From: Callorhinchus milii
Taxonomy: Eukaryota
Direction of reading: 5' to 3'
DNA length: 64,000 nucleotides
Assembly: GCF_018977255.1 (NCBI RefSeq)
Contig: NW_024704742.1
Location: 127,598,001-127,662,000 of the forward strand
Shown here: positions 3,416 to 64,000 of the stretch, piece by piece
How positions within the stretch are numbered: position 1 is the stretch's first letter
Layout of the letters: each line of letters opens with the position of its first letter
Made by a program: the position numbers and the translations under genes
The notes under the pieces: generated by a model
Seen by the model: the letters and a program-made list of their open reading frames with translations, nothing else
What the model was told of the DNA's origin: nothing
Database searches by the model: none

Positions 3416-3766
3416 GGAGTCCTGCAGCTTAGTAGTTAGAGCATTCGCATCACAAGCGAAAGACATGGGTTGAAACCCCGGGCAGAGCGAAATGTTAGGC
3501 AAGTTTTCTTTACTCCACACGCCTCTGCTTACCTAGAAGTAAGTGGGAACCCGGTTGTTAGTCGATTGGCGGATTGCTTTTCTGGGGGTAATAATCCCTT
3601 AAAAAAAAATTAGCCACTCAATCCATGACTGTATATGGGACACAATTTGTCTCTGGTTTCATCCACAAAATATACAGTCACTACACTTTACAATATATTC
3701 TGTGAAGCACTTTGAGATGTCTCAAAGAGGCGATAAGGCGCTATATTGAAATGCAATGATTATTAT
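3416..3766 (+). mobile_element. SINE family A (tRNA-Ala-like head, CORE-like and Deu-like body, L2-type tail), near full length
   Basis: Head ggagtcctgcagcttagtagttagagc with A/B boxes; ggcaagtt..ttactccacacgcctctg body; tail gtgaagcactttgag...ggcgctat...(ATT)n. Confidence 0.9.
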
Positions 3767-9385: not shown

Positions 9386-10168
9386 AAAATATTTTATGCA
9401 TCCAAAATTCAGCTGTTAAAAGCGTTGGCCTGAGAGCATCCTGAGCCAATCTAATGCCTGTTATGCACAAGAAGGATTCCTTGCAATTTCCTTGTCGTGG
9501 GAGCAAAATCTTAGCAGAAAATTATGTTCAGGAGTTTTAATTGTTACATTGTTCAACCATATCAGCACTGAGCTAACATTGCTGTCGATTAGAATTATTC
9601 GAAGTATTTAATTTTTGGACAGATTTTTGCCTGTTTTTGAGCTCTTCAGTAACTGATGTGCCTTACCATTCGGTTGCCAGACTAAAAGCTTATTTTGATT
9701 TGTCGCTTCAGTAAGAGAGATATGAAAGGATTAATACATACAGCTTACCAGACTCCAGGTATCCAGAATTCGTACCCAGCTGGACCAGGTCCGAAACAGA
9801 AAAATTAAAAAAATGTCACGGACCTGGGTGTAGATTCCCGCTGGCTTAACTCTCCTAGCGCTCACCCCCACCTCACTGTCTGCCTCACCATCATTGCTGG
9901 GCTTCAGTGGCCGGGGATATTGACTTTGACTCAGTTTGAATCCCGTAAGCAGCAGATTGCAAACAATTAGACTGCCGGGCCTGGCATTTACTGGCACAAG
10001 CTCGGTCCTGGGATCCGTTACTGTGAAGGGCTCTACGACCCCGTCCGGGGTGGAGGGCGCTATATAAATCCAAGTTGTTGTTGTAGGCTTCTGAAATGTT
10101 GTCCTTGGAATTTAACTTTTTCCATAGGTTGGATGATATGATCTTAATTTGATTTCCTGTATTAGAAG

Positions 10169-11270
10169 AACAACAACAAAATTACATTTGTATTGCGCCT
10201 TTCATGTCGGGAGGATGTCCCAAAGCGCTGGACAGTCAGTGTTTTGGACCCGAGCTGGCGGTCAGGATTGGGGATGGTGGAGGGCAGGGGGGGGAAATAG
10301 GGTGATTGAAAGCACGGTTGAAGTGGAGGGTCTTAAGATGTGTCTTGAAGAAGGCAAGAGAGGGGATGAGGTGGAGGGACTGTGGGATAGAGTTCCAGAG
10401 GGTAGGGTAGAGTGTAGAAGGCCTGCCCACCAATGGTGGGGCAGGCGAGGCAGGGGACGTGAAGCAGGCCGGAGCCCACTGAGCGGAGGGAGCGGGCAGG
10501 ATGGTAGGGGTTTAGGAGGTTGCAGAGGTAGGGGGGTGCAAGGTCATGAAGGGCCTTGAAGGTGAGGCCAGGATCTTGAACTGTATCCTCTGAGTGATGG
10601 GAAGCCAGTGGAGATGGGCGGGATGGGGAGATAGGGTCACGAAGTCTGCTGTTGGAGAGGACACGGGCTGCAGAGCACTGGATGATTTACAGCATATGGA
10701 GGGAGGAGTTGGGGAGGCCGACAAACAAGGAGTTCGCATAGTGAAGCCTCGATGTTATGCATGTATGAGGGTTTCGGTGGCCTGTGGTGTGAGACAGTGG
10801 TGGAGTCGGGCAATGTTGTGGAGGTGGGCGAAGGCAGAACGGGTTATGGCAATGATGTGGTGTACAAAGGATAGTTGAGGGTCAAACAAGATGCCAAAGT
10901 TCCGAACTGGCTTAGCAAGGTGGAGTCTGTAACCATGGATGGTGATGCTGTCAGCGCCTAATGTGTGGAGGCGCTGATGGGAGCCAATCAGCAGAGCCTC
11001 CGTCTTGTTGACGTTCAACTGAAGAAAGTTGGCTATCATCCAGGACTTGATGTCTGACCGACATTCTGTCAGGACAGCAGTGTTCCTGGAGTCAAGGATG
11101 TAGGCAGAGAAATAGAGTTGGATGTCATCCGCATACATGTGGAAGTTGACCCCAAGTCTGCGGATGGTGTCACCAAGTGGGAGCATATAGATGTTGAAGA
11201 GGAGGGGACCAAGGTCAGAGCCCTGAGGAACACCGCACAAGATGGGCTAGAGAAGAAACCGTTTGAAATC
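10169..11270 (-). mobile_element. L2 LINE, 5'-truncated (RT domain to 3' tail)
   Basis: ORF 10755-11240 reads [21 protein letters not shown]...YADD...LQLNVNKTE. Downstream is LHWLPITQRIQFKI, then the stem-loop tail with (TTG)n at 10169-10230. Confidence 0.95.
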
Positions 11271-19488: not shown

Positions 19489-19797
19489 TAATAATAATAA
19501 TAATAATCCTTGCATTTGATATAGTGCTTTTCATGTCTTCTAGACGTCCCAAAGCGCTTCACAGAATATGCTGCAAAGTGAATTGACCGTATATTTGTGG
19601 GCGAAACGCGGCAGCCAATTACGCGCAGATAGTTGTCCCACAAACACTCGTGGATTGAAAATGACCAATTTATTATTGTTTTGTTTTGGAGGGATTATTA
19701 TTAGGCGTGTGGAGTAAGGAAACTTCGCCCTGCCTGGAATTGAACCCTGGTGTCTTGCTTGCAAGGCGAGTGCTCTAACCACTGAGCTACAGGACTC
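19489..19797 (-). mobile_element. SINE family A nested in a family B SINE (19105-19488 and 19800-19860)
   Basis: The family B minus-strand sequence is split at this point and resumes with gggatttgaacccacaac...ctgactcagaggcgagag. Confidence 0.85.
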
Positions 19798-27800: not shown

Positions 27801-30800
27801 AGAGAACCATAGTTAATTTTCTCCTCCTAGGGGCTCTGAGTGCAATTGTAGCACCCACCTGTTTCCCCAGTTAACACGGTGCAAAATAGAATTTGATTCT
27901 ACCATCTTCCCTTCTGAATGAACGAACGGTGCATCAGGCAGTACCTATTCTCAGCAGGCTGTCAAGGGAACACAAAAAGGATCATTTTGGTTGATAGACT
28001 TGTAAGAGGTCCAGAACATTGGAAAAATGTCATAAAATGAATTTGTTTTGAACAGCAGGGAGAATCTTTACTTCAGTTGTGTTACATTGCACTGATTGAG
28101 TGCATGAAATTCCGCTTCATATTTCTCTCCCGAGAGGTATTGCAATCTGTCCGCAATAGGCCGCCTACTAAGATATTACAAACAAATGCTGAAGGAAGGC
28201 TGCCTGTAGTTTACCTTGCTAATGACTTTATTGCACGATTTCAGAAAATCCCATTAATGCTACGATAAGGGACCTTGTTACCTTACAGAAAGCTTCCTGT
28301 ATCCCAGTGGGTTATTGTCAATTGTTGTTCTTCCTCTAATACTGTTACAGATTATTTAACCAGTGCAATAAAAACAGTGATAAAAGATTCTAACCTTTAG
28401 ACTGCTCAGTTTCTGCCTCGTGTGAAAGATCTAAGTTATAACCAGTTATTGAGTCCCCAAGGACTCAACAACTTCAAAAGCGGTGTTGGACAACAGCAGG
28501 CCTCCTTTTCCTATGGGTCTGCAGGTCATTTCCTGTCAGTTCAGAAGGATTATGAAGTAGTTTTTTCAGAATAGCTGGGGCCTCTTTCTCACTTGTATCT
28601 CACTGATGAATCGTACTGTGTAACCAAATGTGCTTTCCTTTGTACTTTAGATCATTTTACATACAAGGAGGAATGTAAAACTAGATTGAGTGCATTCAAT
28701 CAGAGTAACGTAACAGAACTGAAGTAAAGATTCTCACTGCAGTTCAAAACAAATTCATTTTATGACACCTTTCCCATGTCCTGCACCTCTTGTATATCAC
28801 TCATAGCCTACAAATACTGCCACTACTCTTCACAGTTAATCCTATGAAGCGCTTTGAGACATTTTGATGATGTAATAAAAAGCAATATCGAAAGCCAAGA
28901 TTATTGGTATTATTTATATACTGTGTATCCCTTCTGAACATCTGTTCTGCACTATACATTATATCAATCCTTCCATTTAATACAACATTTATCACATCAG
29001 AAGAACATCCCGAAGCATTTTGTTTCACAAGGGGACATTTAGCCATTCCGTGTCTATGCTGGCTCTTTTAAAGAGTAATCCATTCTGACCCAATGTACCT
29101 GCCTTTCCACTAATCCGGATTAAGAAATTTCACTGGAAAACTCGTAAATTTGCAACAGTTCCTCATTGGAAGCTTTTGCATTAAATCTATAAATATTGTG
29201 TATCTATGAAGTGCTGTATTTCAAAAATGTAATTTGCACTTAATCAACTCATGGTAACTTGTACATTCTCTTATCTGGAAAGGTGGGTATTAAAACTACA
29301 ATATCAAACTCCATTGTTAGATGCTGTATATCAGATTATTGCTCAATGTCCTTTGTGGAACTAGTTCAACAGTAAAGTAATGGGTCAGTAAAAAGCAGCG
29401 CGGTTTACTCTTAACACCATCAAAATGGCAGCAATTCACACTAACAAAAAATAAATATGGAAGGTAATTTAGAAAGCGCTTACTTAATATCAAAAATTGG
29501 ACCTAATCGCTTACATTTTGTGAATGTCATATAAAACCGATTATCTAAAGGGATCTTGATGGAAATTATTGTGCTATTTATTAAGTTACAAATTGGACAT
29601 TGCTATAGCTTTCGCTTGATGTGCTTTCACTGCTTGCAGGCAATTTCCATTTCAATTGCTGATTTTTGGTGGAACAATGCAACCTACTTTTTTAGTATAA
29701 ATGAGGAAAACAACAAAAAAAACACAGTAATGGCACTATTAAGGCTATTTTCTTTTTAGCACAGTTTAAGTACCTGCTCTACTTGAGAATGAATTCAATG
29801 TGAATTGGAAAGAGACCATTACAAGAAATGAGAATTCATATGGTTTTCATTGAACTATGTTAAACATAAAATGAACATATAACACTTGCCTAATTTGCAA
29901 GTTTGGTTAACAAATCATGTGCAAAATTAGCACAATGTGCATATGGGGGGAAATACAGATGATCTTAATTGTATTATTAATAATTAATGTCAAGGATTAT
30001 AGGTGAGTTTATAATAATAACATTTGATATATCACCTTATCATGTCGTCAAAATGCCTCAAAGTGCTTCAAGGGTTTTTACTGTGAAGTGGAGTCACGGT
30101 GCATTATATAGGCAAAATGTATTTTGACACCTTAGCCAGGAGTAGAAGAATATTAAATCAAAAAAGCACATGCTTTGTTAAAGTCAATTATCACTGAGCA
30201 TGTCTGAAATGGGTTAAGCAAATTCCTTCATGCTTAGGTTATGGTAAACCTGTGAGTACTGCACCATTGTAAATGTTGTATTACTTTAGAGTTAGGGAAT
30301 TAAGAGAGGATTTCCAAATGTTCTTGAAGAATATATGACAGACTCTAGCAATGGTTAATATCCGATTTCAATTAGATTCTTGCCATCATGTAGACATCCG
30401 AATAAACCTCTAGTTGGTTTTCACAGATTCATTGAAAAACAATATCAATATCTATTGCTTCACAAGCACATTTGAGACTGGAGTTTTGCCAATTTATATT
30501 AAGACCTAATTAGTTTGGTGCTGACTCAGAGGTCGTAAGATCTGCTAAAAGGATATCTATTTTCTGTGTGTAGCCATTTCTGTAAATCAATGAGTCTGCT
30601 CCAAAGACAATGCGTTAGCACACTGATTCTTGATTCAATTTGAATTCAAGTAAACCACAAACAGTGAACCAAATGTAAGAACCAGAGGCTTGAACTTTCT
30701 CCCAGTCATAGCATTGAGACCACCGTCTTAAAATTTAACACTGTGCGGAACTTTGGCAAAGGTGGTCAATGAGGCAATTTAACTAATTTATATCCAGATA

Positions 30801-31545
30801 ATTGAAGACTGGAATGTGAGATGTTATTGTTTCCCCCTGACTCTCACAATGGTTGGGCTTGAAACTGGCTTACACTGCAATGTACGCCAAGCATGATGTT
30901 TGTGGAATATGAGTGTCGATTCATGAGATGCCGTCTTAAAAAGCTGTTATCCCACATTCCCGCACTGCTCCAATGGTGCGTCTCGGGAGCTGAAAACACA
31001 ATGCTTTGGGCTCAACCACTATGATGGACTTGGGGAAAGGCAGTATCACACCCCATAGCACCAGTTTTTAGTTATAAGCTGTCTGTGGTTATCAATTGGC
31101 CTCTTAAACCGCATTGATCAATGATATAATATTTATCACCGGTGATAATGACACATCACCGGATGCAAATAATTTTCACCTAAACATTCTTTAGCCTGGT
31201 CATGCACAGCAGTCAGGGGAGGTAGAAGGAAAATTGTTTGATTGTAGAGGTAGCTGCCAGTCAGTGGCAGCTCTGTACTGAGTGTCACAGGAGCTATTAA
31301 CCTCCGACATTAGATGGCCAATTTCATGTTTAAGAATTCACAAAGGGTGGATTACACATCTGAATCTGTGTTTGTACAACATGAATTCTGTCTTTTCTGT
31401 CAATGTTGATTTCTTCACTGATATGCAACCACCTTGACCTCTATAAACAAAATGCAAAATACTGCAAATGCTGGAAAACTGAAAAAAACAGAAGTCCCTG
31501 GGAACACTCAGCAGGTCAGGCAGCATCTTTGGAGAAAGGAAAGTG

Positions 31546-31582
31546 AGTCAACGTTTCGGGTCCACGACCATTCATCAAAACT
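31546..31582 (-). ncRNA. Minimal hammerhead ribozyme motif, degenerate (CUGAUGA reads UUGAUGA)
   Basis: Minus strand reads AGTT-TTGATGA-A-TGGTC gtg GACCC-GAAA-CGTT-GACT. Confidence 0.65.
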
Positions 31583-31743
31583 GGGGTATGTGGAAGGGAG
31601 AGGCTTTTAAGGGCTAACAGAGAGGGGGGAGGCAGAGCAAGGAAGACAAAGGAGAAAATGGGGTAGAGGACAGGGAATGATGGGCTAAAGAGGTGTTAAT
31701 GATGCATAACAATGGGGGGTGGAAATTGCGGAACATTTTTCCT

Positions 31744-31892
31744 GGGGAGACAAAATGCAGATTGGATGATTGATTTGCCAAACACCTCCGTTCTGTCTGC
31801 AAGCACAACCCTGAGCTTCCGTTTCTTGCCACTTCAACTCTCCCGCCCACAATATCGGCCTCAATATTGATTTCAACAATTTCAGACCATAA
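31744..31892 (+). pseudogene. Decayed GIY-YIG endonuclease C-terminal fragment (Penelope-like ORF end)
   Basis: Manual translation gives GETKCRLDD*FAKHLRSVCKHNPELP, then a frameshift to CHFNSPAH, then a deletion to GLNIDFNNFRP*. This matches the GxT.R.L..RF.EH...HF...H...GLN pattern of PLE endonucleases. Confidence 0.8.
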
Positions 31893-32188
31893 CAGCTCAT
31901 CTTTCCCCTTCCCCTCCTCTGTGACCATTCCCACATCATCTGGGTTCCAGACACACCTTTTTCTCTCTCTGGTCTGCCTATTTTGTTGCAATTCCCCAAC
32001 CCCGCTTGTTGTGCATTATTAACACCTCTATTCCCCAGTTTTGTTGCAATCCACCACTTTGTTTTGCATCATTAACACCTCTTTAAACCATCATCCCCTG
32101 TCTTCTACCCCATTTTCTCCTTTGTCTTCCTTGCCCTGCCTCCCCCCTCTCTGTTAGCCCTTAAAAGCCTCTCCCTTCCACATGCCCC

Positions 32189-32225
32189 AGTTCTGATGAA
32201 GGGTCATGGACCCAAAACGTTGACT
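32189..32225 (+). ncRNA. Minimal hammerhead ribozyme motif, degenerate (GAAA reads AAAA)
   Basis: AGTT-CTGATGA-A-GGGTC atg GACCC-AAAA-CGTT-GACT: helix I, intact CUGAUGA, helix II and a palindromic ACGT in place of helix III. Confidence 0.65.
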
Positions 32226-32644
32226 CACTTTCCTTTCTCCATAGATGCTGCCTGATCTGCTGAGTGTTCCCAGCGACTTCTGTTTATGCTTCACCTTGAC
32301 CTCTATTTCTATCTCAATACTTTGGCCAAAATGACTTCTGAGTGGGATCCACAGTAACAAGATGATGTCAGAATTATATCAGGAAATCAAAGTTTTTTTT
32401 AAAATTCAATAGAAAACAGATGTAAACTCAAGGTTTTCAATTGACCATTTAAAGTTGACTGTTTTAAATTCACTGCAGATGAAGAAGTCAGATTGAATGT
32501 TATCCTGGATTGTTCCCCTCTTTCCTGGCGGTGGACACAATTAGATTGATTCACATCAAGGAACATACTGAGAAATGACTGCCACGGGAGGAAAAGCCTC
32601 CAAGATCTAAAGCTCTTTTAACATAACTGACCAAATAATTATTC

Positions 32645-33210
32645 ATGTTTTCATCATATCAATGCTTGACTACTCCAAATGCCCTGCTCACACGACTCCC
32701 CAGCCCTCTCCTTTATGAACTACAGACTATCCAGAACTCTGCAGCCCACGCTCTCTTCTGCACCAGCCGATCCAAGCCTATCACTCCCATCCTCACTCAG
32801 CTCCATTGGTTCCCCATCCCCCAGCGTATCAAATTTGAGCTCCTCAATCTCACTTTCAAATCCCTCCACGAATGTGCACCACCTGCAGTCTCCTACAACT
32901 GTACACACCAGGTCACTGCCTTTAGTCAGTGAATACTGACCTGCTTCATGTTTGCCACTGTATCTGCCCCAACATTATCAGGTGAGCTTTCAGCCATTCT
33001 GCCCTCGTTTGCTGGAACTCAATCCGAATCCTTCTGACTCGACCCTCCCTCACCACTTTCAGAGCCCGCCCCAAGACTTACCTCTTTGACCACGCTTTTA
33101 TTCACCTTTCCCTTACCCACCCTCTTCAACTTCCACCCCTGGCTTAAGTGCCCAGACAATAGTTGAAAGTGGTTTGAGACATCCGCCCAACACTATAAAT
33201 GAAGGCTCTA
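32645..33210 (+). mobile_element. Older L2 LINE 3' fragment
   Basis: LQTIQNSAAHAL...ITPILTQLHWFPIPQRIKFE, with a degenerate tail. Confidence 0.85.
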
Positions 33211-35830: not shown

Positions 35831-38800
35831 ATTGCTATTGTAGACCCAGTTTGAGTGGCAATTTGAGGTTAAGGTGGCCACATACTAACAACCCTCATTG
35901 CAAAACATTTTGCTCTAGTTTGGCTTATTTTTCTTCTGGCCTCTATTATAAACCTATAATTCTTCTATTTGCAGGTATATGTTTTTCAAGCTTCTTAAGG
36001 AATTTTCTGAGTAAATGATTCTGGAAAGAGGAAGCGGATAAACCAATGTCCTGAACAGTTTGCACCCTTGAGAACTACAGTGGTATGTGATTCGAATATT
36101 AACATTTGCTTCACCAAGCTGAATCGTACAGCTTTTATGTCATTGAAAGTTTCCTCATATAAAATGCATTGAACTACACTCAGATGCGATGAAGGTGTTA
36201 TATCTGCTGATAAGATCTTATCTTCTATAAAACATCAAACTTATAAAAATATGGTACCCTATTGCCCTAAATTCAACCGCTAACCTCTGTCTCAAACCCT
36301 CTTTATCTATCTTTAAATCTCTTCAACTGTACCAATGGTCATCTCCCCCTTTTCCCTTGCCTGGTGTCCAACACTGCCACTATGTAATGCTTCGGGATGT
36401 TATCCTGCCTGAAGCACACTATCTAAATATGAGTTGTTAAATTGTTGTTAAATTCAACATGGTCTTAGCCTTAAACCCATTGTCTTGAAGCTTAAGATTG
36501 TGCAGAATTTTAGAAAAAGTTTAAATTCAGTCTTAACTTGAAAGTTGTTTTTTCTAATGGTCTTAAAAGAATTGCCCAAATTCTTAAACATTAAAACAAT
36601 GGTCTAAGAAAAAATCATCTGCAATTTCAGGCCTCTAATATCCATTATTGGAATCATGAGGGTTGGGTGACTAAATGTACAGTGTATTTTCAGGTTATTG
36701 CTCAGTGAGGAACCAGCTACAAGTTAATAGGTTTCTCGGTTTATTCCTTTGATGTGACTCACAGTTCCTTTTTATACACTAGATTAGATTTGTTTTTTGT
36801 CTGAAATGAATCTCCATTTCTGTGGAAGATGCCTTTAACTTTACTCATTTTAGTTTCATGCTTGGTTTGTTTGCTGAAAATGAAACAATGTAATCTAAAT
36901 ATTTGGTTTTGTTTTGTTCTTTGCCCTAGCTTTAAAATTGGTTTGAAATTCAACACCTCAATGCAATGATAAAATATTTTATGAATAGGAATGGTGCTAT
37001 CAACAGAAACTAATCCGATGTACAGCCACTTGCATAATATCAGCTACTGGTCTCTGAATATTGGGATGTATTAAAATGGCTATTTTCTTCAACTCTTCAT
37101 GGTTTAAGGAGGCAAGTATACTGTTGACGTCATTTTGAGGGCAAGGATTCTTCCCATTTAGCTCCTGTTAACCCTGCAAGTCAAAGCCCTTATGGTATAG
37201 GGTGGTCCTTGCTGAATAAGCAGTAGAAAGCTTGCCAGACAGTGCTTTCAATGGTTGAACTCCAGCAGTAAGAATGTCGGTGGACCTGGGCCATGACTAG
37301 GAGGAGAAAAAGTAGATTTGGATGTCATCCATAACATGGAGGGAGAGAGTGTGCATTTTATTCCAGACACAGGGAAATTTCTATGTATCTGTGGCATACA
37401 TACATTGAACTGTCAGTCTGGTTTGGGTAGTTTTAAACATGGAAGTGGGTTTCCACATGTATCAGATCTGACCCCAAAAACTCAGGAACAGCCTCACTTC
37501 CAATATGTAGTTCATGTTCACCATATTGGGTGCCAGGAACATTTGAGCTGGAAGAGGATGCTTATTTGCTGGTGTGGTAACTGACTGCTCTGTGGTTTTT
37601 TTCTTGAAGATAAACTTTAAACAAACAGGAGATCATTACAGCACTATGTATTTCTGTGCACACACACCTATATAAGGACAGTTAAATCGCTCTGCACTAC
37701 CCCAAGTACCATTCTGGTCACGGATGTTAAAGGCAATGAATCAATATGTTTGACAATAGGATTTACGCCCACTTCTTTTCCAAAAGTGGTAAACTCCCAT
37801 TTTTCCATTCTGCTGGAACACACAGTATTATTTTCCTAAATTCCAGTCGATAGTGGAAGCAACTAAACGTTTTATGGCCAGCTGCTTTTAATAAATCCAC
37901 TGAGATTTCACAAATTCTGGGAACGTTCCCAGGTATAGAGAGCCAGTCTGGGGGCTTGTCCAAGGTTTAGAGATGATATAAGTGCCTATTTCTTTCTTTT
38001 TACTTTCTCATGTTCCTTTTTAAAAAGAAAAAAAAAGTAGATCCCCTTCCCATCCAGTCCCTCGGCCTCTGTTCTGTTACGGCTCAGCCTGAGCTCACAG
38101 ATTTCATCCTAGCCTCCACCCAAAAAGGACATTCTTTGTTCTTTGGGATAGTTTACCCTCATAATTATTCTCCTCTCCCTAATTCCCCCTCCCCCAGATA
38201 CAGCTCTATTCATGCTGCAGCTAAGTATTCACACTCAACCATGGGAGACTCCTGAACTTGATTAGCAGTCAAGTTCAGCATTAATATTCTGCTGATGCCC
38301 AGTAAGGGAGTCAAGTAGGCCACTGGTTAACTGCTGGCTAACCTCCAACAGTTTTCTGTGAGTAAATCTTTGAATATGAGTTTGGGGAGGAATGGAATGT
38401 AGAGGTTTTTGCAAGAATTTGTTCCACTATTTAAGTTGATCTGGCAACACTGTAAGCTATTCACCACTAGCAGATGTTTAGGTGCAATTTTTTTTTGTTT
38501 TGTTTTATGCTCTTTTACATTTTTTTTCATTAGTTCGAGCACAGTCTTTGCACTGTTTCTCGCAGCTGCTTTTTCAACATCTGTTTCTTTAATTATCCCA
38601 GTTTGTCTTATTCCTTTGCGCAAGCACATTTGGTCGTGTTTTGAGAATTACCCCATTGTGTGCCGAAACAACTACAATTAAATTGTAATAAAGCAGAAAA
38701 GGCATCGATACAAAAAGTTTTTTTTTAAAAAAGTGCATTCTGGCTGGACTTTCAATCATATCATTATTTCAGACTTCTAGAAATGATTTAATTCTGCCTC

Positions 38801-39409
38801 CCAGCACCCTCTTTTTCACCCCATGGGTCTTAAACACAGGAGGTCCAGGAGCCGGGCACTTACCCAGGTACTGGAGGTGCACTTTCAACAGAATAAAGCT
38901 TGAAATGCCAATTGTTCTCCCTTCAAGAAGGAATGTTCCTTCATTGCAAAACAGAAAAGACTGTGAAGTGCTTAAGCATAACAGTCTGTCTTGGAATTGG
39001 CTGAAGCATATCCCAAACTGTGAGATGCAAGTTTAGTAATGCAATCTGGGGGGTTATTTTCCTTATTGATTTTGAATAGAGGAGCATTCACTCACGAAGT
39101 CCAACCAATATGAGTACGCTTGTTGTCACTGCAAGCTTTCTACTTCCCAAACAATATCCAGTTGTTAGAATATGGGCAGTTTTACCCATGGTTTAAGGCA
39201 TGTGGAGTGAAAATGAGGGCATTGGGGGGCAAAATTTAATCATTTCAAGAAGTCTGAATAATGATAAATTTAAAGTCTGGCCAACATGCCTTGACTGTGT
39301 TGGTGGTCACCTCTCCCAGCTCAGCAACAGCTCTGCCACTGTTAAACACTCTGAGACACTGCCTCGCGTGAAGGCCGCTATATAAATGCTAGTTGTTCAC
39401 ATCGGGAGA

Positions 39410-41400: not shown

Positions 41401-43834
41401 TTATTAAAAGGTACAGGAAAACAGCAGGGCAATGGAATTGGAGTAGGTGGCTCCAATGGAGGAGCTAGCACCAGCGTAAGAGTGCAATGGGCTGAATGGC
41501 CTCCTGTGCTGTGAACTTTTTATGCTGCCTACTGGGTTCGTTCACAGTGTGAAAAAAAAGCATTGAAAACCTGAACCCCATTAAGGAGGTGAAAATTGTA
41601 ACCTGTAATGTATTGATTAACACTGGTAAGAATTAACATGGGTGTTAATTATTACGTCATTGAAGAATGCAACACATTTAAAACTATTGATTGTGTTATA
41701 TCCCCTCCCTGATTCTGTCACAATAGTTTGGTTTGAAGCTTTCTCAAGCCTCCATTGTGCCCACAGATTGTAACACGGAAGTTCTAGCAAGCAGCCCATC
41801 ATCTTAACTCAACATACTTTTCAGACAGTGCTATCAATAACAAGCTACGCGGTCTTAGCTGGTTAAACTCCAGCAGTTATCCCAACACACACTCTGGGGT
41901 TCCCAAGTCTTGGCTCTTGCCAACCTGTGCCTAATACTTTCCGAATTTTGGTAAGTAGGATGTGTCCCTCCAGGAAGAGAGTGCGCATTCCAATGAACTC
42001 CTCTGGAATTTCCACATGTAGGTGGGATGCATGGAATTCTCAGTTTGATTTGGATACTCTTAAGCATGGTGATGGGTTTCCGCTTGTGTCAGACACCCGG
42101 TTGACAAAAAAAACTCAACAAATCAGAGTAACCTCACTATCCTTTGAGTGCTAGAGACTCCTGTAGCAGTTGGAATAACAAATTTAGCTTCTGTCTCCTT
42201 ATTGTATTCCTTGCACTTGATATAGTACCTTATTACATCATTGAATTGTCACAAAACAATTTACAGGATTTACTGTAAAGTTTAGGGAATGTGTATTTAT
42301 AGGTAAAGGAGGCAGCCAATTTGCACAACAACAGCCATGAAATGAATGGCCAATTTTACCTGGGGGGTTGTTGGCCAGGGTTATTGAGCCAGAGCTTCAA
42401 CATACAATACAATACACTACAAATTTACATTTATATAGCACCTTTCATGTCGGGAAGGCATCCTAAAAGCATTTAATAGTATTGGCTGGGCACCGAACAG
42501 GGGGTGGAAGCCAAGGGGCTGGGGGAAGGGGCTATTATGGATTATCAAGCATTCAACTGGGTCTAATTATTAATATAAATATTTTCCTTAATGAAGGCTT
42601 AAGATCCCTTTCTATGAGTGACCAAATCTGAACGTATAGATATTATGTGTCCCATTCTCCCCACATTGTTAACACTGTGTATAAGCTACAATTCCAGTAA
42701 ACCACCCTTTCATGAGCTTGTTATGCCTTTTGCAGTAGTGTACTTTCAACTCGGCAAACCCTAGTTTTATATTTATGAACATTGGGGGAGAGCTTTTGCC
42801 AAAACTGATTCCACACATCCTACTCTTTAGCTGTGCCAATCTCGCTGCTCCACGCTTGTCTCCCAAAAGTGATTTTAATCATGATTTTGATTCATAAGTG
42901 AAGTCATGCAGCTACTTAATGGTACAAGTAACAACAAAGGCATTGTATATTTCATCCTAAAGCATTCGTATCTCCTTTTCATCAAGTTTCTAATGCAGTA
43001 TTAATGGAAAGCATTGTTAATGTTCACTTTAGATTTATTGACAATGAAATACTAATATTTGAAGAGGAACTACAGTGTGAGTGATCAAAGCTGAAAATTT
43101 TCCTTAATAAATAGATGGTTTATTTAGATTAAGATACAGTACTTTTAGTTTTTGACAGGGTTGCAGTTACATTTTGTTCACAAATAAGTCATTTTGTAAA
43201 TCATCTGACTTGAGTGGATTTCACTACCGTGCACCCAGTTTATAATAATAATTCTAGTGGGATTGATTTGGAAGCTCTTTTCAAAGAAACGGCACAGACA
43301 CGATGGGCTGAATGGCCTCCTTCTGAGCTGTATAATTCTATGATTCTACCCTAAATATTATAACGCCATTGACTGAGGTTCAGCCGTAGTGAAGCCAACC
43401 CTTAACGTGATCGCTAGCCTTTGTCTGGACGTTTCTGCGGCTTGGGATTTGCTTGTTGGAAATACATGTTGGAAATATCGCGAATAAAACTACAAGTATC
43501 AACAAATTTGTTTTTTAAACATTGAACATGAGACGTCATTGTGTAGTTGAAGACCTCAGTTCTGTAATATTGGCACAACAAAGTGCACACAGTACCAGTC
43601 ACACCCGATGGAGGAATGGGGTCACCTCCTTCAACTTCCACCTCAAGCTCGGATGCCCAGCCAGCAGTGATAAGCGGTTGAAAGGTTCTCTCCACATGAA
43701 AGGTGCTATATAAATGCAAATTGTATTGTGTTCACTTCCAGTTTCGAAAGTCAATAACCACAATTTTAGAGCATGCTCCCACGCCATCAAAGATTCATCC
43801 TTTAAGCTTCCCTGTGCCTCATTTGGGAGAGCGC

Positions 43835-44660
43835 TAATCCAGGACTTGATGTCTGTGAGGACAGCAGTGGTCCTGGAATCGAGGGTGGATGTAGAGAGGA
43901 AGAGTTGGGTGTCATCCGCATACATGTGTAAGTTGACCCCATGTCTGTGGATGATGTCACCAATGGGGAGCATATATATATTGAAAAGGAGAGGGTCAAG
44001 GATGGAGCCCTGAAGGACACCACATGTGATGGTGCAGGAGCTGGAGGAGAAGCTATTAGTGGCGACAAAATATAGACGGTGGGAGAGGTAGGATTCAAAC
44101 CAGGCAAGGGCAGTTCCGCAAAGATTGAGCTGAGAGGAGAGGTGGTGTAGGAGGATAGAGTGGTTGACAATGTCGAAGGCAGCAGAGAGGTCGAGGAGGA
44201 TAAGGAGGCAGAGAGAGCCCTGGTTACAGATGTTCAAAATGTCGTTAGTGACTTTGACCGGAGCTGTTTCTGTTCTGTGGACAGCATGGAAACCCGATTG
44301 GAGGGGTTCAGAGAGGGAATGGCGGGAGAGGAAGAGCAAAGCTGGGACACGACAATTTGTTCCAAGGCCTTGTAGAGGACTGGGAGGTTGGAATTTTAGG
44401 CGATAGCTGGAGAGTAGGGACGGGTCCAGGGAAGGTTTCTTGAGGGTGGGGGTGATGACAGCTGTTTTTAGGGAGCTGGAACGAGTGCCGGTGGATAAGC
44501 AGAGGTTGATAATGTCGGTTAAAAGAGAGACCAGGAGGTAGAGTTGGGAAGTGAGGAGAGGGATGGGGATGGTGTCGCAGGAGCAGGTGGTGGGTTTCAT
44601 TTTTGAAATGGTGGAGGTGAGAGAAGAAGGGGAGACAGGGCCGAAGGTGGAAAGGGAAGG
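43835..44660 (-). mobile_element. L2 LINE reverse transcriptase fragment
   Basis: Within ORF 43599-44762: LQSGF...TETA...LLDLSAAFD...[17 protein letters not shown]...YADDTQL...DIKSW. Confidence 0.95.
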
Positions 44661-44725
44661 ATGGTGCTCTGAGACCCTACCCTGCGTGGAGGGCACTATA
44701 TTAGTGGAAGTTGTTGTTGTTGTTG
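44661..44725 (+). mobile_element. L2 3' tail fragment
   Basis: gctctgagacc...gtggagggcactatat...agttgttgttgttgttg, the same tail as other L2 copies. Confidence 0.8.
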
Positions 44726-44837
44726 AAAAGAAAAGAGAATTTCTCTCATTGACCCAGGCCAATAGTCACTTAAATGAAATTAGATTTTTATTTGGGTCAT
44801 TATTTTTATTTATATATTTTATTTGAAATAAAATTTT

Positions 44838-45360
44838 ATCCAAGCTCGACTACACTAACTCCCTACTTGTCAGTCTTCCCAATTCTTCCCTCCACAAGCT
44901 GCAGATCATTCAGAACTATGGGGCTCATGTCCTCTCCCCCACCAGGCTCCGTGACCCCATCAGCCCACCCTCGCCCGGCTCCAGAGGCTCCCCTTCCCCC
45001 TGAGGATGAGTTTAAAATCCTCATCCTCACCTTCAAGGCCCTCCACAGCCTTGCCCTACCTCTGTGATCTGCTAACCCCATATCAATCTGTCGCTCCCTC
45101 CGCTCAGCGGGTTCCGCCCTACCATCGGCGGTCGAGCCTTCAGACTTTCTGCTCCCACCCTTTGGAACTCCATCGCACATCCGTCTCAAAACCATCCTCT
45201 TCGGCCGTGCCTTCAGTCACCTTCCTACCCCCACCCCCCTTGCCCTCCACGCATCCTGATCCCAACCCCCAGCTCGGGTCCAAATCCCTGACTGTCCAGC
45301 ACCTTGGGACCTCCCCCCGATATGAATGGCGCTATATAAATGTAATTTGTTGTCGTTGTC
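44838..45360 (+). mobile_element. L2 LINE 3' fragment
   Basis: Remnants SRLDY, KLQIIQN and EFKILILTFKALHSLA, ending in ggcgctatataaatgtaatttgttgt. Confidence 0.9.
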
Positions 45361-48914: not shown

Positions 48915-49733
48915 CAGGCGCTGGCAGTATCAGCCTCCATGGCTGCACACTCACCCTCACTAAGCCAGTCAGGAACCTGGATATCTTGTTTGACTTTGAA
49001 CTGTCCTTTCTCCCCCACATCCACGCCATGACCTGCACTGCCTATCACCACCTCCGCAACATTGCCAGACACCGCCACTACCTCACCCCTCAGGCTGCCG
49101 AAACCCTCACCCACGCATTTGTCACCTCAAGGCTCGATTACGGGAACTCCTTCCTCATCGACCTTCTCAACTCTTCCCTTCACAAGCTGCAGATCATTCA
49201 AAACTCTGCAACTCGTGTACTCTCACGCACCAGGCTCCGTGACCCCATCACTCCCACCCTCTCATCACTCGCCTGACTCCACTGTCTCCCCATCCCCCAG
49301 AGGATCGAGTTCAAGATTCTCGTCCTCACCTTTAAGGCCATCCACTGCCTTGCCCTCTCCTACCTTTCTGACCTGCTGACTCCCTACCAAACTGCCCACT
49401 CTCTCCGCTCATCGGGCTCCGGCCTGCTCCATGTCTCCCACCCGACCCGCCCTACCATCGGTAGCCGGGCTTTCAGCCTCTCTGCCCCCACACTTTGGAA
49501 CTCCATCCCACGGTCCCTTCACCTCACTTCCTCCCTTGTATCCTTCAAGGCCGGTCTCAAGACTCTTCTCTTCGACTGTGCCTTTGGTCTCCCTCCCACC
49601 TCTCTGCCTTCCCTCACCCCTACACCACCCCTCCCCCATGCTCGGACCCTGACAGCTGACTGTTCAGCGCTTTGGGATGTCCTCCCGACGTGAAAGGTGC
49701 TCTACAAATGTAATTTTGTTGTTGTTGTTGTTG
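48915..49733 (+). mobile_element. L2 LINE, 5'-truncated
   Basis: ORF 48863-49276 reads VRNLDILFD.ELSF..HI...HAFVTSRLDYGNS...KLQIIQNSA. The 3' tail ends in (TTG)n. Confidence 0.95.
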
Positions 49734-54846: not shown

Positions 54847-55420
54847 ACAACAACAACAACAACTTGCACTTATATAGCACCCACCATGCAGGGCAGCATC
54901 TCAGAGCACTTAACAGTGGCAGAGCCTGACTCTGAGCTGGGGGTGAGGAAGTGACTGTAAGCACGATTGAAAAGAAAGATTTTCAGACTGGACTTGAAAA
55001 AGAGGAGCGAGGGGGCAAGGCAGAGGGATTGAGGCAGAGTGTTCCAGAGTTTCGGGGTGTAGTGGCTGAATGCGCGAGGGGCAAGCAGGAGCCAGTGGAA
55101 TGGAAGCACCGAGTTGTGGATTGGGGAGTGAGGAGGTCGGAGAGGTAGGGAGGTGCCAGAGAGTGAAGGGATTTGAACACAAATGTGAAGATCTTGAATT
55201 CGATCTGTTCGGTGATGGGGAGCCAGTGGAGCCTGACTATAACTGGAGAGATGTGGGTACGGAGTTTGGTTTGGGTCAGTAGGTGGGCGGCAGAGTTCTG
55301 AATGAGCTGGATATTTTGAATAATAGAGCTGGGGAGACTGGCGAGGAGTGTGTTGGAGTAATCCAAGCGGGAGGTGACAAATGCATGCATGGGGGTTTCG
55401 GCTGCATTTGGGATAAGGGA
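54847..55420 (-). mobile_element. L2 LINE 3' fragment
   Basis: HAFVTSRLDYSNTLLASLP...QNSAAHLLT...LHWLPITEQIEFKI, with a (CAA)n tail at the left end. Confidence 0.93.
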
Positions 55421-58269: not shown

Positions 58270-58622
58270 CAATACAATATTACATTTGCAAAGTGCCTAT
58301 CATGTCAATAGGACGTCCCAAGGTGCTGAACAGTCAGGGATTAGATATTAGGACCCAAGCGGGGGCAGGGGTGGGGTTGGGATCAGGGGAGTGCAGGGCA
58401 GAGAGGTAGGAAGGTGGCTGAAGGCACTGTCGAAGGGGAGAGTCTTGAGACGCGCCTTGAAGGAGGCAAGGGAGGAAGTGAGGAGAAAGCAATGTGGGTT
58501 GGAGTTCCAGGGTGGGGGCAGAGAGGCTGAATGGTGGGGCGGGCTAGGACGGGGGACATGGAGCAGGCCGGAACCTGCTGAGGGTGGGTAGCGGACAGGT
58601 TGATAAGGGGTTAGCAGGTCAG
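58270..58622 (-). mobile_element. L2 LINE 3' fragment
   Basis: SDLLTPYQP...GSGLLHVPRP...FKARLKT, with tail caatacaatattacatttg. Confidence 0.88.
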
Positions 58623-59186
58623 AGTGTTGCCTTTCAACACAAAACCGCAACGGATGTCATAGCAACCAGTTTGCAAACCCCATAAATCTGAAATCCATTT
58701 AGACTTTCTGTGTATGCAGAAGGCAGCAAAACAGACAACCCTGAAATTTACAACTGAGACAAACTGAAAAGCATATGGGTCGAGTCAGTCAAGTAGTAAG
58801 TTGACGTGTTCTTGCTTCGTGAAGTTTGCAGAAATTTGAATGTACAAAACAAGACATTTGTACTAATTCATTGTGCAAACAGCAATTTAATTACAAAAAA
58901 GATAATTACATACCAAATTCAAATCATCATCATATGTTTGCTCCCAATAAACTTGCTACGCTTACCCTTTCTCGCTCCCGTAAGATGTATTTCACCCGCA
59001 AAAATATACATTTAATTCACTTTATAGTATATTCTGTGAAGTGTTTTGAGATGTCTCGGCGATGTGATAATACACTATATCAAATGCAAGGATTATTAAT
59101 ATTATTAGCTTTTCAACAGCACTTTTGGCCTTGCTAAAATTATGAGTTTTAGGCATAGTGCATAGGCATAGGCATAGACTTTCAAA

Positions 59187-59612: not shown

Positions 59613-60339
59613 TTGAAGGTGCCATGGGACTTGTATATCTTTATTATTGTTGTTGAATTTGCCTAAAATGATGTTATTTAGGATTAACTATTTATAGTGT
59701 TGTATATTTTGTATATATTTCTTATTGTAGATTATTTTTGTCATTAACGTTACAAATGACACAGGATGCAAACCTTTCCTTGTGCTGTTATTCTGTTGCT
59801 AGCAAACACACGTTTGTTCAACAGATGGGTAAGAGACCAGCAAGGATATTGTGTTTTGATTTGTTACCCTTTAACCTGGTTAGAGCAGCCCAAGCTGCAA
59901 AACAAGCACAGTATTATTGCCGCATTTCATTAATCATGGGCTGGGCCATAACAAAAGTGCAGACACTTTTGCAAAAAATTGTGGAGCACTTTACAAGTCT
60001 TGCGAGGAATTGCAAAGGGCTTTGATAGATTTTGCAGGAAAATTGTGGGGCTTGGTTGGTGCTATTGAGGTACATTTTACTGCTACATTTGTTCACTTTA
60101 TTGATAAAAGCTAAACATAAGGAAATAACACATATTAGATTGTTGCAAAAAAAATTATTAATTGCTTCATTAAGAAAAACTGGGTGGCCTTTTTTTTGGG
60201 GTGGGGAGGGGGGACACTAGCGAGGCTATAGGAGCTCACCACTTCCTGCCTCTCAGGGCCGACACCCCACACAGACAACAACAACAAAATTACATTTGTA
60301 TAGTGCCCTTTCATGTCGGGAGGACGTCCCATGGCGCTA

Positions 60340-60865
60340 GAAACAGACACAGAGACGTAGAGAGAGACACACACACTCAGAGACCCAGAGAGAGACACAC
60401 ACACACTCAGAGAAACACAGAGAGAGAGACACACACTCAGAGACACACATACACTCAGAGACACAGAGAGAGACACACACACTCAGAGACACAGAGAAAC
60501 ACACACACACTCAGAGACCCAGAGAGAGACACACACTCAGTGACCCAGAGAGAGGCAGACATGTACTCAGAGACACAGAGAGCAAAAGACACACACACTC
60601 AGAGAGACAGAGATACACACTCACAGACACAGAGAGAGACATTCTCAGAGAGAGAGAGAGAGAGAGACAGTCACAGAGAGAGACACATTCTCACAGACAC
60701 AGAGAGACACATTCTCAGAGAGAGAGAGACACGCACACACTCATAGACACAAAGGGACATACATACACACATACACAGAGACATACATTCACACAAAGAC
60801 ACTCATAAACACACACACACATAGAAGAGACAAACACACTCACCGAGAGCCACACACAAACAATC
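60340..60865. repeat. Compound (AG)n/(AC)n low-complexity minisatellite
   Basis: Recurring unit close to CACACACTCAGAGACACAGAGAGAGA. Confidence 0.95.
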
Positions 60866-61354
60866 ACAACAGAGGGGCCTCTGAGTGTAGCCCATTTGCC
60901 TCTTGCGCCATATTGCACAAACGTGCCCGGAGCTGCTCCACCCACAGTAACGCCAGGTAAACATCACGAGCATCCTGGAGATCTGAAACTATATTTATGG
61001 TGGGTTTGTAACAGACGGGATCGTTGTAGTGGAAAAAGCGGAAAAGGTGCAGCTGCACTTTTCTATTGACTCTAGTCATGGGCATCAAACAAATAAGCCT
61101 TTTGCATCAGACTAATGCATTTGGGATGTCGTCCCAATGGGGAAGGTGCTATATCAATGCAATTTCTTGTTGTTGTTATCAGATCTGTTTTTCGGTGTTA
61201 AGTAAATCAAAACTGTAAAATTTTATGATTGAAATCACCAAAATGAGGTCTAATTTGCAATATTTCATAACGGGATTCCTTAATAAGAAAGGAATCACGT
61301 TAGAATTCCTCTAAGTCTATGGGAACCCCACTCGGGAAGTAAATCCAGCCAGGG

Positions 61355-61995: not shown

Positions 61996-64000
61996 TTCAT
62001 CTTTGAGACATGACCCCACCTGAAAGGCACTTTGTGAAAGCAAATTGTTGTTGTTTCCAGGTGATTTTATATTTTGGATTTAGTAAAAAAGCTTTTTTTT
62101 ACAAGAAATGAAGAATGAACAGGACACGCTGTGCCATTAAGTAAGATCACAGGTCTTTCATTGCGTCTTCAGAGGAGGTGTGTTCTGGAGCTCCAATTCT
62201 ATGTGCCTGGCAGGTTACTTCTCAGTCTATTCTCAGTCTCATGTCATGGTTACACACTTGTACATAAAACCATAGAACCATAGAAATTGACAGCACAGAA
62301 GAAGACCATGTGGCCCAGTGTGTCTGTGCTGGCTCTTTTAAGAGCAATCTTTTTTTTCAGTGCCATTTAGCTGCCCTTTTCCCATACCCCTGTAGTTTAC
62401 AACACCACATATCCCTCTAATGAAACTAGAGTTTGCATTGCTGTTCATCAGTAATCATATTGATGGCTCTACTTCTTGCAACCTGCAGCATGTGGTGGTG
62501 AATCTACTGTCTTTGATGTGTTTTGCTGCGTTTTTTTTCATCTCTGTTAGAAGTTTAAACATGTTTGATACAATACAGCAAGTTGGCATTGGTTTGTGGA
62601 GAGAAAAGGCTTGAGTGTGGAGAAAAAAATAATTTCCAGTTATATATATTTTCTCATATTCCCGTAGAGGAGAATTTCCTTTTCAAAAACTTCAGCACTC
62701 AGCCCGAGTCCCTTAACTGTGATTCACAGCGGGGAGCTATCACGTGTGAGTCACTTGCTGTTACAATAACTTTGTTGCTCTCCTTAGTGGGACATTCCAT
62801 TACAAGCGTGCAATGAAATATTCACCATAACTAGGCAACAACGGACGACAACCCCTGTAGTTTTGCTTTTTAATTGACGGATACTATAATCATAGCCTTT
62901 GGCTCCTAACAAAATAGCCAACATCTGTATTAAGACACTCCTTCCTAATGAAATCCTATTAGCCTTGTTGAGAACTATTACTGAGTAATGTAGAACTACT
63001 GCATTCAGATTGAATAACACATTTTTGTTAAAGGTAGTTGTTCTTCTCACACCACCACCAAAAAACCTGAATTATTCCCAGCTTCCAGCTATCCATTACA
63101 CAGCCTCTAAGGATTTCACATTTCCTCTATTAACTCACTGGAGGTAAAGTTTGCAGCATTTCAAAACTATTGCTGGCATTAACTATTGCCCCCAGGTGGT
63201 AGTACATATGGGTTCCCCATTATTCAGCTCTCCACCATTTTTATTTCATTCTGAAGCGACCATTTCTCATGTTGCAAATTGTAGATCCTAGAGCAATTTC
63301 TAAGTTTTTTTTGTTTAATATTTATTTTTCAGAGTAGATCTGTCGAGGAGGCACCAAATGGGCGAAAAAATCATGTTTTTACAAACCGAGTAGGATAAGC
63401 CCTCAAGCCCCCTGACTTTCGAAATAAAAATGGGTGGCAACAACGGACGAAAACCCCTGTAGTTTTGCTTTTTAATTGACGGATACTATAATCATAGCTG
63501 GATTTGAAAGAGAGAAATAAGTATTTCAACTTGTGAGTATAAACACTGGCATAGACTAGTTGGGCCAAATGGCTGGTTTCCATGCTGTATAATCTAAATA
63601 TATCTTGTGAGTGCCCACAAAATACACACTTTACAATATATCCTGTGAAGCATTTTGAGCTGTCTTGACAACATGATAAAGTGCTATATCAAATGCAAGG
63701 ATTATTATTATTTATTATTGTGTAAAATGTTTCTCTCAGTTGGATCCAAGGAACTAATGACCCAGAATTTCATCTTGTCTTAGTGAATAAGACGATTTTG
63801 TGTTTAGATTTAAGATAACAGATAATTGCGGAAACCTCTTTACTTCAGCATTACTTCGGAAGCAGTCTTTCTGCTGTTGTGAAAATGTAACCAGCTTCTA
63901 CATTAAGACCAAATTTAAGTTTCTACAAATCTTTATAATCCTAAATATTAAGGCCATATTGTCTCAAATGCTAAAACTAGGTGGAACTAGGGAAGGTAGA

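What the first reader, a model, noticed from the sequence alone, without database searches (positions are those of the whole stretch)
31447..32285. Penelope-like element with paired inverted hammerhead ribozyme motifs
Seen: a decayed GIY-YIG tail sits between two inverted arms of about 250 bp. Each arm holds a 37-nt motif (31546-31582 minus, 32189-32225 plus) with consensus AGTT CTGATGA A GGGTC NTG GACCC GAAA CGTT GACT. Each copy has a different core lesion, C to T in one and G to A at a CpG in the other, so together they reconstruct an intact core. Established: Penelope-like elements carry minimal hammerheads with a palindromic ACGU in place of helix III, proposed to cleave as dimers, and often insert with inverted pseudo-LTRs. 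Inference: this family had a self-cleaving ancestor, and a read-through transcript here would form a long dsRNA stem.
Basis: partly seen in the sequence, partly recalled or inferred. Interest (0 to 1): 0.72.

Follow-up and report, generated by a model that had tools for sequence, protein, structure and literature searches.

The report
Dead Penelope retroelement with inverted hammerheads
This 847-base insert is a broken, inverted tail-end copy of a very abundant Penelope-like jumping gene; each arm carries a mutated copy of that family's small self-cutting RNA motif, so the catch is real but of an already described kind.

Summary
The insert is 31445-32291 (847 bp). One contig of another organism bridges the site with a single copy of that 15-mer (empty site). 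The arms are 227 bp at 94% identity, and the left arm adds a 41-nt tail. Both 37-nt motifs fit the published minimal-hammerhead consensus: the only 2 hits in the window, 0 in 20 simulated windows. Both are damaged: right G12A; left C3U plus G10.1U (the latter missed). Being antisense to each other, they cannot complement or dimerise; a read-through RNA buries the sense copy in the stem. The endonuclease remnant matches Neptune-type PLE endonucleases by eye only; no database search confirmed it. The family is very high-copy in all 4 runs laid. Opposite-strand hammerhead pairs, inverted pseudo-LTRs, tail and TSD are all published, and this scan noted the same kind of insert before, in this genome and others. 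One lead: many short copies seem to begin at the first base of helix I.

The parts
31430..31444 (+). Target-site duplication, left copy (15 bp, perfect)
   Evidence: present once in the empty-site contig of run X6 (table 8, record 25; arithmetic)
31445..31485 (-). 41-nt 3' tail of the element, present on this arm only
   Evidence: Not matched by the right arm; family contigs run on behind 32285/32293 with similar letters (table 7)
31486..31737 (-). Inverted, 5'-truncated pseudo-LTR copy (227 bp align without gaps to 31712; the inner end near 31737 is read by eye)
31546..31582 (-). Minimal hammerhead motif, left copy, with C3U (31578) and G10.1U (31570)
   Evidence: consensus in PMC4209133 Fig. 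S3
31744..31892 (+). Remnant of the C-terminal part of a PLE GIY-YIG endonuclease, starting at the G of YIG; in-frame stop at 31771-31773, one-base frameshift near 31820, internal deletion near 31850, natural-looking stop at 31890-31892
   Evidence: a base put in behind 31820 in family contigs (table 4); by-eye match to Neptune rows of PMC8557442 Fig. S2; automated searches negative
31893..32291 (+). Sense pseudo-LTR / 3' region, without the tail; holds a decayed tandem duplication of about 53-59 bp (about 31980-32082)
   Evidence: family D2; table 5 joint 31997-32057
32189..32225 (+). Minimal hammerhead motif, right copy, with G12A (32214); helix I 32189-32192/32222-32225, helix II 32201-32205/32209-32213, predicted cut site after 32221
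32292..32306 (+). Target-site duplication, right copy

Best explanation
A dead-on-arrival insertion of an endonuclease-positive Penelope-like retrotransposon, probably Neptune-type, made after the window's lineage split from at least one relative. SHOWN: insertion into an empty site with a 15-bp duplication; head-to-head geometry with 3' ends facing out; a tail on one arm; a high-copy family; later point mutations in both hammerheads. INFERRED (from PMC11167929): the element's protein cut both target strands 15 nt apart and primed two cDNAs, one per strand, from two start sites about 40 nt apart on the uncleaved RNA. One cDNA (about 290 nt, with tail) and the other (about 550 nt, without tail, reaching into the endonuclease) stopped early and were joined at about 31737-31743. 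The hammerhead was copied twice as a passenger of the pseudo-LTR. It has since decayed with no sign of protection and does nothing here. In the active family it most likely is a weak, dimer- or protein-assisted self-cleaving motif.
For: Empty site: one 2261-nt contig of run X6 joins 31432 to 32295, a skip of 862 nt that equals the offset of the two 15-mers. Filled site at both junctions in run X1 (records 1 and 7). Arms differ at 14 of 227 (about 3.1% each), less than half the 10.7% flank difference to X6, as expected for a later insertion. 13,560, 26,961, 26,928 and 4,264 contigs laid in X1, X5, X6, X15. Inverted pLTR, one-sided 30-40 bp tail and TSD are typical of PLEs. Opposite-strand min-HHR pairs 100-700 bp apart are published. 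The motif fits the published consensus. The hammerhead differs at 4 of 37 against 10 of 190 elsewhere in the arms, p 0.25, so it is not better conserved.
Against: No automated search tied the interior to a GIY-YIG protein. No reverse transcriptase and no full-length family member could be retrieved. Rfam has no hit. The family consensus at the core positions was not displayed (278 rows cut). The empty site rests on one bridging contig, with a second run (X5) only implied by depth arithmetic.
Confidence: 0.92

Rival explanations
1. A non-autonomous miniature inverted-repeat DNA transposon (MITE) or fold-back element that moves as one unit; the hammerhead-like motif is only part of its terminal repeats.
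For: Long inverted arms and a clean TSD; head-to-head pairs are frequent in the family (table 5).
Against: The arms are unequal at the outer ends by 41 nt, so there are no matched termini for a transposase. Depth over the arms' outer part is about a hundred times or more that over parts of the interior, so the unit is not amplified whole (table 2). The interior reads like a PLE endonuclease end.
Confidence: 0.03
2. The insert has been co-opted: a read-through host transcript forms a 227-bp dsRNA stem that is edited or diced, or a surviving hammerhead cuts it.
For: The hairpin would be very stable (-501 kcal/mol, z -36, 0 of 20 shuffles as good); longest perfectly paired run 48 bp.
Against: Both hammerheads have core lesions and are buried in the stem on either strand. 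The insert is lineage-restricted. No host exon was recognised nearby: 1 of 150 frames of 61 aa or more in 14-50 kb hit Pfam, a LINE reverse transcriptase (a weak test for short exons).
Confidence: 0.04
3. The inverted copy arose after insertion, by a local DNA rearrangement or a second independent insertion, not in one retrotransposition event.
For: Arms differ at 6% and the right arm has a tandem duplication the left arm lacks.
Against: One 15-bp TSD encloses both arms. The left arm has tail sequence that the right arm lacks, so it cannot be a copy of it. The same geometry is common in the family (tables 5, 5c).
Confidence: 0.03

Closest known systems
Minimal hammerheads (min-HHR) in pLTRs of metazoan PLEs (Cervera and De la Pena 2014, PMC4209133; read: main text parts 1-2 of 4, supplement 2 parts 1-2 of 3)
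   Same: Type I layout, CUGANGA-H, extra base before helix II, G10.1-C11.1, palindromic 15.2/16.2 in place of helix III, NUH, short helix I. Dual motifs 100-700 bp apart on opposite strands (Schistosoma) and a truncated PLE with a second motif on the opposite strand (Cotesia bracovirus) are described there.
   Different: No cartilaginous fish is among the alignment rows that I saw. Both copies here carry core lesions.
Insertions of endonuclease-positive PLEs: Adineta vaga Penelope (PMC3846280, passages) and the general scheme in PMC8557442 (passages; supplement parts 54-55 of 59)
   Same: 5' truncation, adjacent inverted truncated copy, 30-40 bp tail on one end, TSD, empty-site proof.
   Different: TSD here is 15 bp against 8-10 bp in the Adineta examples; only the last 150 bp of the ORF remain.
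Poseidon of Anolis carolinensis, PAc (Frangieh et al. 2024, PMC11167929; read parts 1-2 of 4)
   Same: Two reverse-transcription start sites that bracket the tail; both target strands cut and extended; hammerhead upstream of the start sites; uncleaved RNA is the main template.
   Different: The endonuclease remnant here looks closer to Neptune rows (HFxxPxH, GLN) than to Poseidon, by eye. The PAc ORF starts at helix II; not tested for this family.
Non-LTR retrozymes (bioRxiv 10.64898/2026.07.22.740005; read passages and part 2 of 5)
   Same: Non-autonomous PLE-derived sequences with hammerheads; reported in the one chondrichthyan genome sampled.
   Different: Those are head-to-tail tandem repeats that can form dimers; this is a head-to-head pair that cannot.

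Membership tests
Endonuclease-positive PLE (truncated copy) | C-terminal GIY-YIG endonuclease with CCHH residues | tested here: inconclusive
   By eye 9 of 21 residues identical to Neptune1_Nv after YIG, plus HFxxPxH and GLN in the right order; Pfam, two word searches, phmmer and PDB gave no true hit on these short pieces.
Endonuclease-positive PLE (truncated copy) | Telomerase-like reverse transcriptase upstream of the endonuclease | not testable with these tools
   This copy ends at about 31743; no genome is held and no longer family member was retrieved.
Endonuclease-positive PLE (truncated copy) | Pseudo-LTR in direct or inverted orientation | tested here: met
   227-bp inverted arms, 94%.
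Endonuclease-positive PLE (truncated copy) | Tail of about 30-40 bp at one end only | tested here: met
   41 nt at 31445-31485.
Endonuclease-positive PLE (truncated copy) | Insertion with target-site duplication | tested here: met
   15-bp repeat and empty site in run X6.
Metazoan min-HHR | Intact catalytic boxes CUGANGA and GAAA in this locus | tested here: not met
   0 hits at zero mismatches; right copy G12A, left copy C3U. These are relics, not filed as active ribozymes.
Metazoan min-HHR | Intact boxes in the family consensus | tested here: inconclusive
   Each box is intact in one arm; 3 of the 12 junction rows shown table 5c give an intact box in other copies (546 rows not shown); no consensus could be built.
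Metazoan min-HHR | Helix II with extra base before it and G10.1-C11.1 pair | tested here: met
   Met in the right copy (5 bp); the G10.1-C11.1 pair is broken in the left copy.
Metazoan min-HHR | Palindromic 15.2/16.2, NUH triplet and short helix I | tested here: met
   Both copies; same CGUU arrangement as several rows of Fig. S3.
Metazoan min-HHR | Covariation in helices I and II across the family | not testable with these tools
   Only two near-identical copies held; collection scans gave no family loci.
Metazoan min-HHR | Self-cleavage as a dimer or with the element's protein | not testable with these tools
   Needs an in vitro assay.
Rfam hammerhead families | Score against a curated covariance model | tested here: not met
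   No hammerhead model among the hits at E up to 10 or at gathering score.

The most novel reading that the evidence does not exclude
The family's commonest product is a short run-off cDNA with a fixed 5' end at the first base of hammerhead helix I. In one search, contigs begin at 32189/32190 with unrelated upstream letters (80 in X1, 132 in X5, 128 plus 193 in X6), and head-to-head joints land on 32188-32191. If that point is the RNA's 5' end or a splice junction, these elements make strong-stop-like cDNAs on both strands of a roughly 15-nt staggered cut, from uncleaved RNA. The palindromic hammerhead might then serve to hold two template RNAs in a dimeric particle. Tens of thousands of such stubs would map the PLE insertion cycle in vivo.
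Probability: 0.2. Interest if true: 0.45.

Novelty: new member of a known kind. Interest (0 to 1): 0.13.

Why it matters
As a locus it matters little: it is one decayed copy of a very abundant family. It is a tidy specimen of the PLE insertion signature (15-bp TSD with empty site, one-sided tail, head-to-head arms) and a presence/absence marker between related species. The open question it touches is what PLE hammerheads do in vivo. This copy cannot answer that, but a genome-wide survey of the family's ends could.

Tried and rejected
No whole genome is held, so no genome-wide consensus. Rfam: no hammerhead in 29-35 kb, in 32150-32300 or in the whole window. Pfam on 3 interior pieces: one chance hit at E 0.2. 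Word-based protein searches with two interior frames: no candidates, weak evidence for 40-44 aa queries. phmmer against 1.84 billion representatives: 2 hits, both repeat proteins that score by summing repeats (a NACHT-LRR protein and a 421-aa repeat protein), rejected. PDB sequences: 2 chance hits. The look-alike search by language-model features was not obtained, so that route is untested. DNA pattern scans: 0 in viral contigs, 0 in prokaryotic genomes, 6 in metagenome contigs, all 59-66% GC loci with no similarity beyond the 21-mer by eye, rejected. No RNA holder is listed for the stretch, and the one RNA-guess run laid (X15) has no cover on most unique flank bins; neither is evidence on expression. 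A-to-I editing could not be tested because the contigs come from copies all over the genome. An initiator-like motif at 32187-32193 is weak: 9 such matches in 399 bases. Isolated hammerhead folds are no better than shuffles (z -0.64 to 1.41), and the active fold has pair probabilities of 0.01 or less in local context; minimal hammerheads are not expected to be stable as monomers. Lunse et al. (PMC5785218) is not held; I saw it only as cited in passages of PMC6765202. Supplements of the bioRxiv preprint were not seen and may list the chondrichthyan families. Searches for a paper on shark PLE hammerheads showed none in their listings; the library lacks most subscription journals, Repbase and Dfam.

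Full report
1. What is in the sequence. Two inverted arms, 31486-31712 and 32059-32285, match at 213 of 227 bases with no gap. Each holds the 37-nt motif at the coordinates given; the two differ at 4 of 37 places. The element has no other copy in the window. I wrote a descriptor after the published minimal-hammerhead consensus (PMC4209133 Fig. S3). It finds no site at zero mismatches, the right copy at one and the left copy at two. It finds nothing else in 64 kb, and nothing in 20 of 20 simulated sequences of like composition. The right copy has G12A at a CpG (32214). Rfam finds no hammerhead.

2. Limits and insertion. A perfect 15-bp direct repeat lies at 31430-31444 and 32292-32306; about 6e-6 such repeats are expected in two 60-base windows. 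The insert is thus 31445-32291, 847 bp. I laid 4 of the 24 listed runs on 30900-32900. In X1 (organism A), contigs cross both junctions with 1 other letter each, so the site is filled. In X6 (organism C), one 2261-nt contig runs to 31432 and goes straight on at 32295. That skip of 862 equals the offset of the two 15-mers: an empty site with one copy. X5 (organism B) probably shows the same, but this is implied only by depth arithmetic. The arms differ by 6.2%, about 3.1% each, and the flanks differ from X6 by 10.7%, consistent with insertion after the split; CpG decay makes this rough.

3. Anatomy. The left arm extends 41 nt beyond the right arm's end (31445-31485). Family contigs continue behind 32285 and 32293 with similar letters (table 7), so this is the element's own 3' tail, present on one arm only. 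By eye the left arm runs inward to about 31737 and the sense copy starts at about 31743. The sense copy reads GETKCRLDD-stop-FAKHLRSVCKH, then after a one-base loss CHFNSPAH, then after a deletion GLNIDFNNFRP-stop. Family contigs have the extra base behind 31820 (table 4). Against the endonuclease alignment of PMC8557442 Fig. S2, 9 of 21 residues after YIG equal the Neptune1_Nv row. The three histidines marked there and GLN come in the right order. The conserved arginine is the stop codon, and the stretch with the conserved glutamate is deleted. This is a by-eye match. Pfam, two word searches, phmmer on 1.84 billion proteins (2 hits, both repeat artefacts) and PDB did not confirm it; the pieces are 24-44 aa. 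No reverse transcriptase remains.

4. The family. Contigs laid: 13,560 of 6,906,335 in X1, 26,961 of 13,493,220 in X5, 26,928 of 7,114,053 in X6, 4,264 of 1,663,283 in X15. These are not copy numbers, but they show a very abundant family in three organisms. Summed depth peaks over the hammerhead and the stretch 3' of it, roughly 5 to 30 times or more above the upstream pseudo-LTR, as expected for 5'-truncated retrocopies. Head-to-head joints are common (15 rows shown, 967 not). Of the 12 junction rows shown in table 5c, 3 give an intact CUGANGA or GAAA box in other copies. The table of other letters was cut before the core positions, so the family consensus and covariation were not tested. That the host is a cartilaginous fish is my recollection of this repeat plus earlier scan notes; it was not tested.

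5. How it most likely arose. Shown: insertion, TSD, geometry, tail, decay. Inferred from the in vitro work on the anole element PAc (PMC11167929): the protein cuts and extends both target strands, and reverse transcription starts at two sites that bracket the tail. Two cDNAs primed on opposite strands of a 15-nt staggered cut, one from each start site, both stopping early and joined head to head, give this structure. Both copies include sequence on either side of the predicted cut site (after 32221), so the templates were uncleaved. That agrees with the finding that unprocessed RNA is the main substrate and that the PAc hammerhead cuts only with protein.

6. What the pair can and cannot do. 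A transcript of either strand would fold into one long hairpin (-501 kcal/mol, z -36; longest perfect run 48 bp). In that fold the single sense hammerhead is paired along its length to the other arm. Dimeric hammerheads need two sense copies (PMC4209133). In the domain-swapped model both catalytic boxes of one active site come from the same monomer (established model, recalled), so the two lesions could not complement even in trans. The hammerhead region is not better conserved than the rest of the arms (4 of 37 against 10 of 190, p 0.25). No host exon was recognised in 14-50 kb: of 209 frames of 55 aa or more I scanned the 150 longest, and 1 hit Pfam, a LINE RT. Transcription of the locus is unknown.

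7. Comparison with what is known. Minimal hammerheads in PLE pseudo-LTRs, including pairs 100-700 bp apart on opposite strands and a truncated element with a second inverted motif, are in PMC4209133. Inverted pseudo-LTRs with a one-sided tail and a TSD are in PMC3846280 and PMC8557442. A 2026 preprint reports PLE-derived retrozymes in one chondrichthyan. I saw no paper on shark PLE hammerheads in the listings, but the library is partial and Lunse et al. is not held. This scan has noted the same kind of insert before: 9 notes fit in this genome, some with 14-15 bp TSDs, and more in other genomes. These are unchecked notes, not support. It works like a PLE min-HHR relic and is filed as a truncated PLE copy. 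It is not filed as an active ribozyme, since the intact-core test fails in both copies.

8. One lead. Contigs begin at 32189/32190 with heterogeneous upstream letters (agreement 0.34-0.36; 80 in X1, 132 in X5, 128 plus 193 in X6), and many joints land on 32188-32191 (only the best-supported rows are shown). This is the first base of helix I. It may mark the RNA 5' end or a splice acceptor; in Drosophila virilis the intron ends at helix I. It may also be only the point where subfamilies diverge, or where local alignments break. The initiator-like motif there is weak (9 matches in 399 bases). I give the strong-stop reading a probability of 0.2.

9. Verdict. Observation confirmed; interpretation partly supported; new member of a known kind; interest 0.13.

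Noticed in passing
family contigs laid on window 32188-32191: Many contigs begin at the first bases of hammerhead helix I with unrelated upstream letters, and head-to-head joints land there too (tables 5, 5c, 7). It may be the RNA 5' end, a splice acceptor (a pyrimidine run then CAG precedes it) or a subfamily boundary.
   Followed up: partly
window 31980-32082: Decayed tandem duplication of about 53-59 bp in the sense pseudo-LTR; some family contigs skip it.
   Followed up: partly
window 32640-33150: A second, C/T-rich high-copy repeat about 350 bp right of the insert (depth rises at 32709-32842); looks like a LINE fragment (recalled, not tested).
   Followed up: no
window 43602-44765 (minus): 388-aa open frame with a reverse-transcriptase hit (RVT_1, E 8e-17); related LINE pieces near 10166-11245, 44844-45359, 48916-49729, 54856-55418 and 58274-58624.
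   Followed up: no
window 3422-3486 and 19725-19796: tRNA-like Rfam hits within a dispersed repeat of up to about 350 bp with some 20 copies in the window: probably a tRNA-headed SINE.
   Followed up: no
window 28004-28104 / 28691-28791: Inverted repeat of 101 bp, 88%, about 590 bp apart, with a 6-bp direct repeat near both ends; MITE-like.
   Followed up: partly
window 38735-38835 / 39191-39289: Inverted repeat of about 100 bp at 79%; no flanking direct repeat found.
   Followed up: partly
window 62834-62896 / 63436-63498: Direct repeat of 63 bp at 98%, 602 bp apart, with unrelated sequence between; unexplained.
   Followed up: partly
window 60135-60960: Long degenerate CA/GA-rich simple-repeat tract that gives spurious open frames.
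   Followed up: no
window 31124-31177: Small imperfect hairpin in the left flank with a weak microRNA-model score (E 0.13, far below gathering); probably chance.
   Followed up: no
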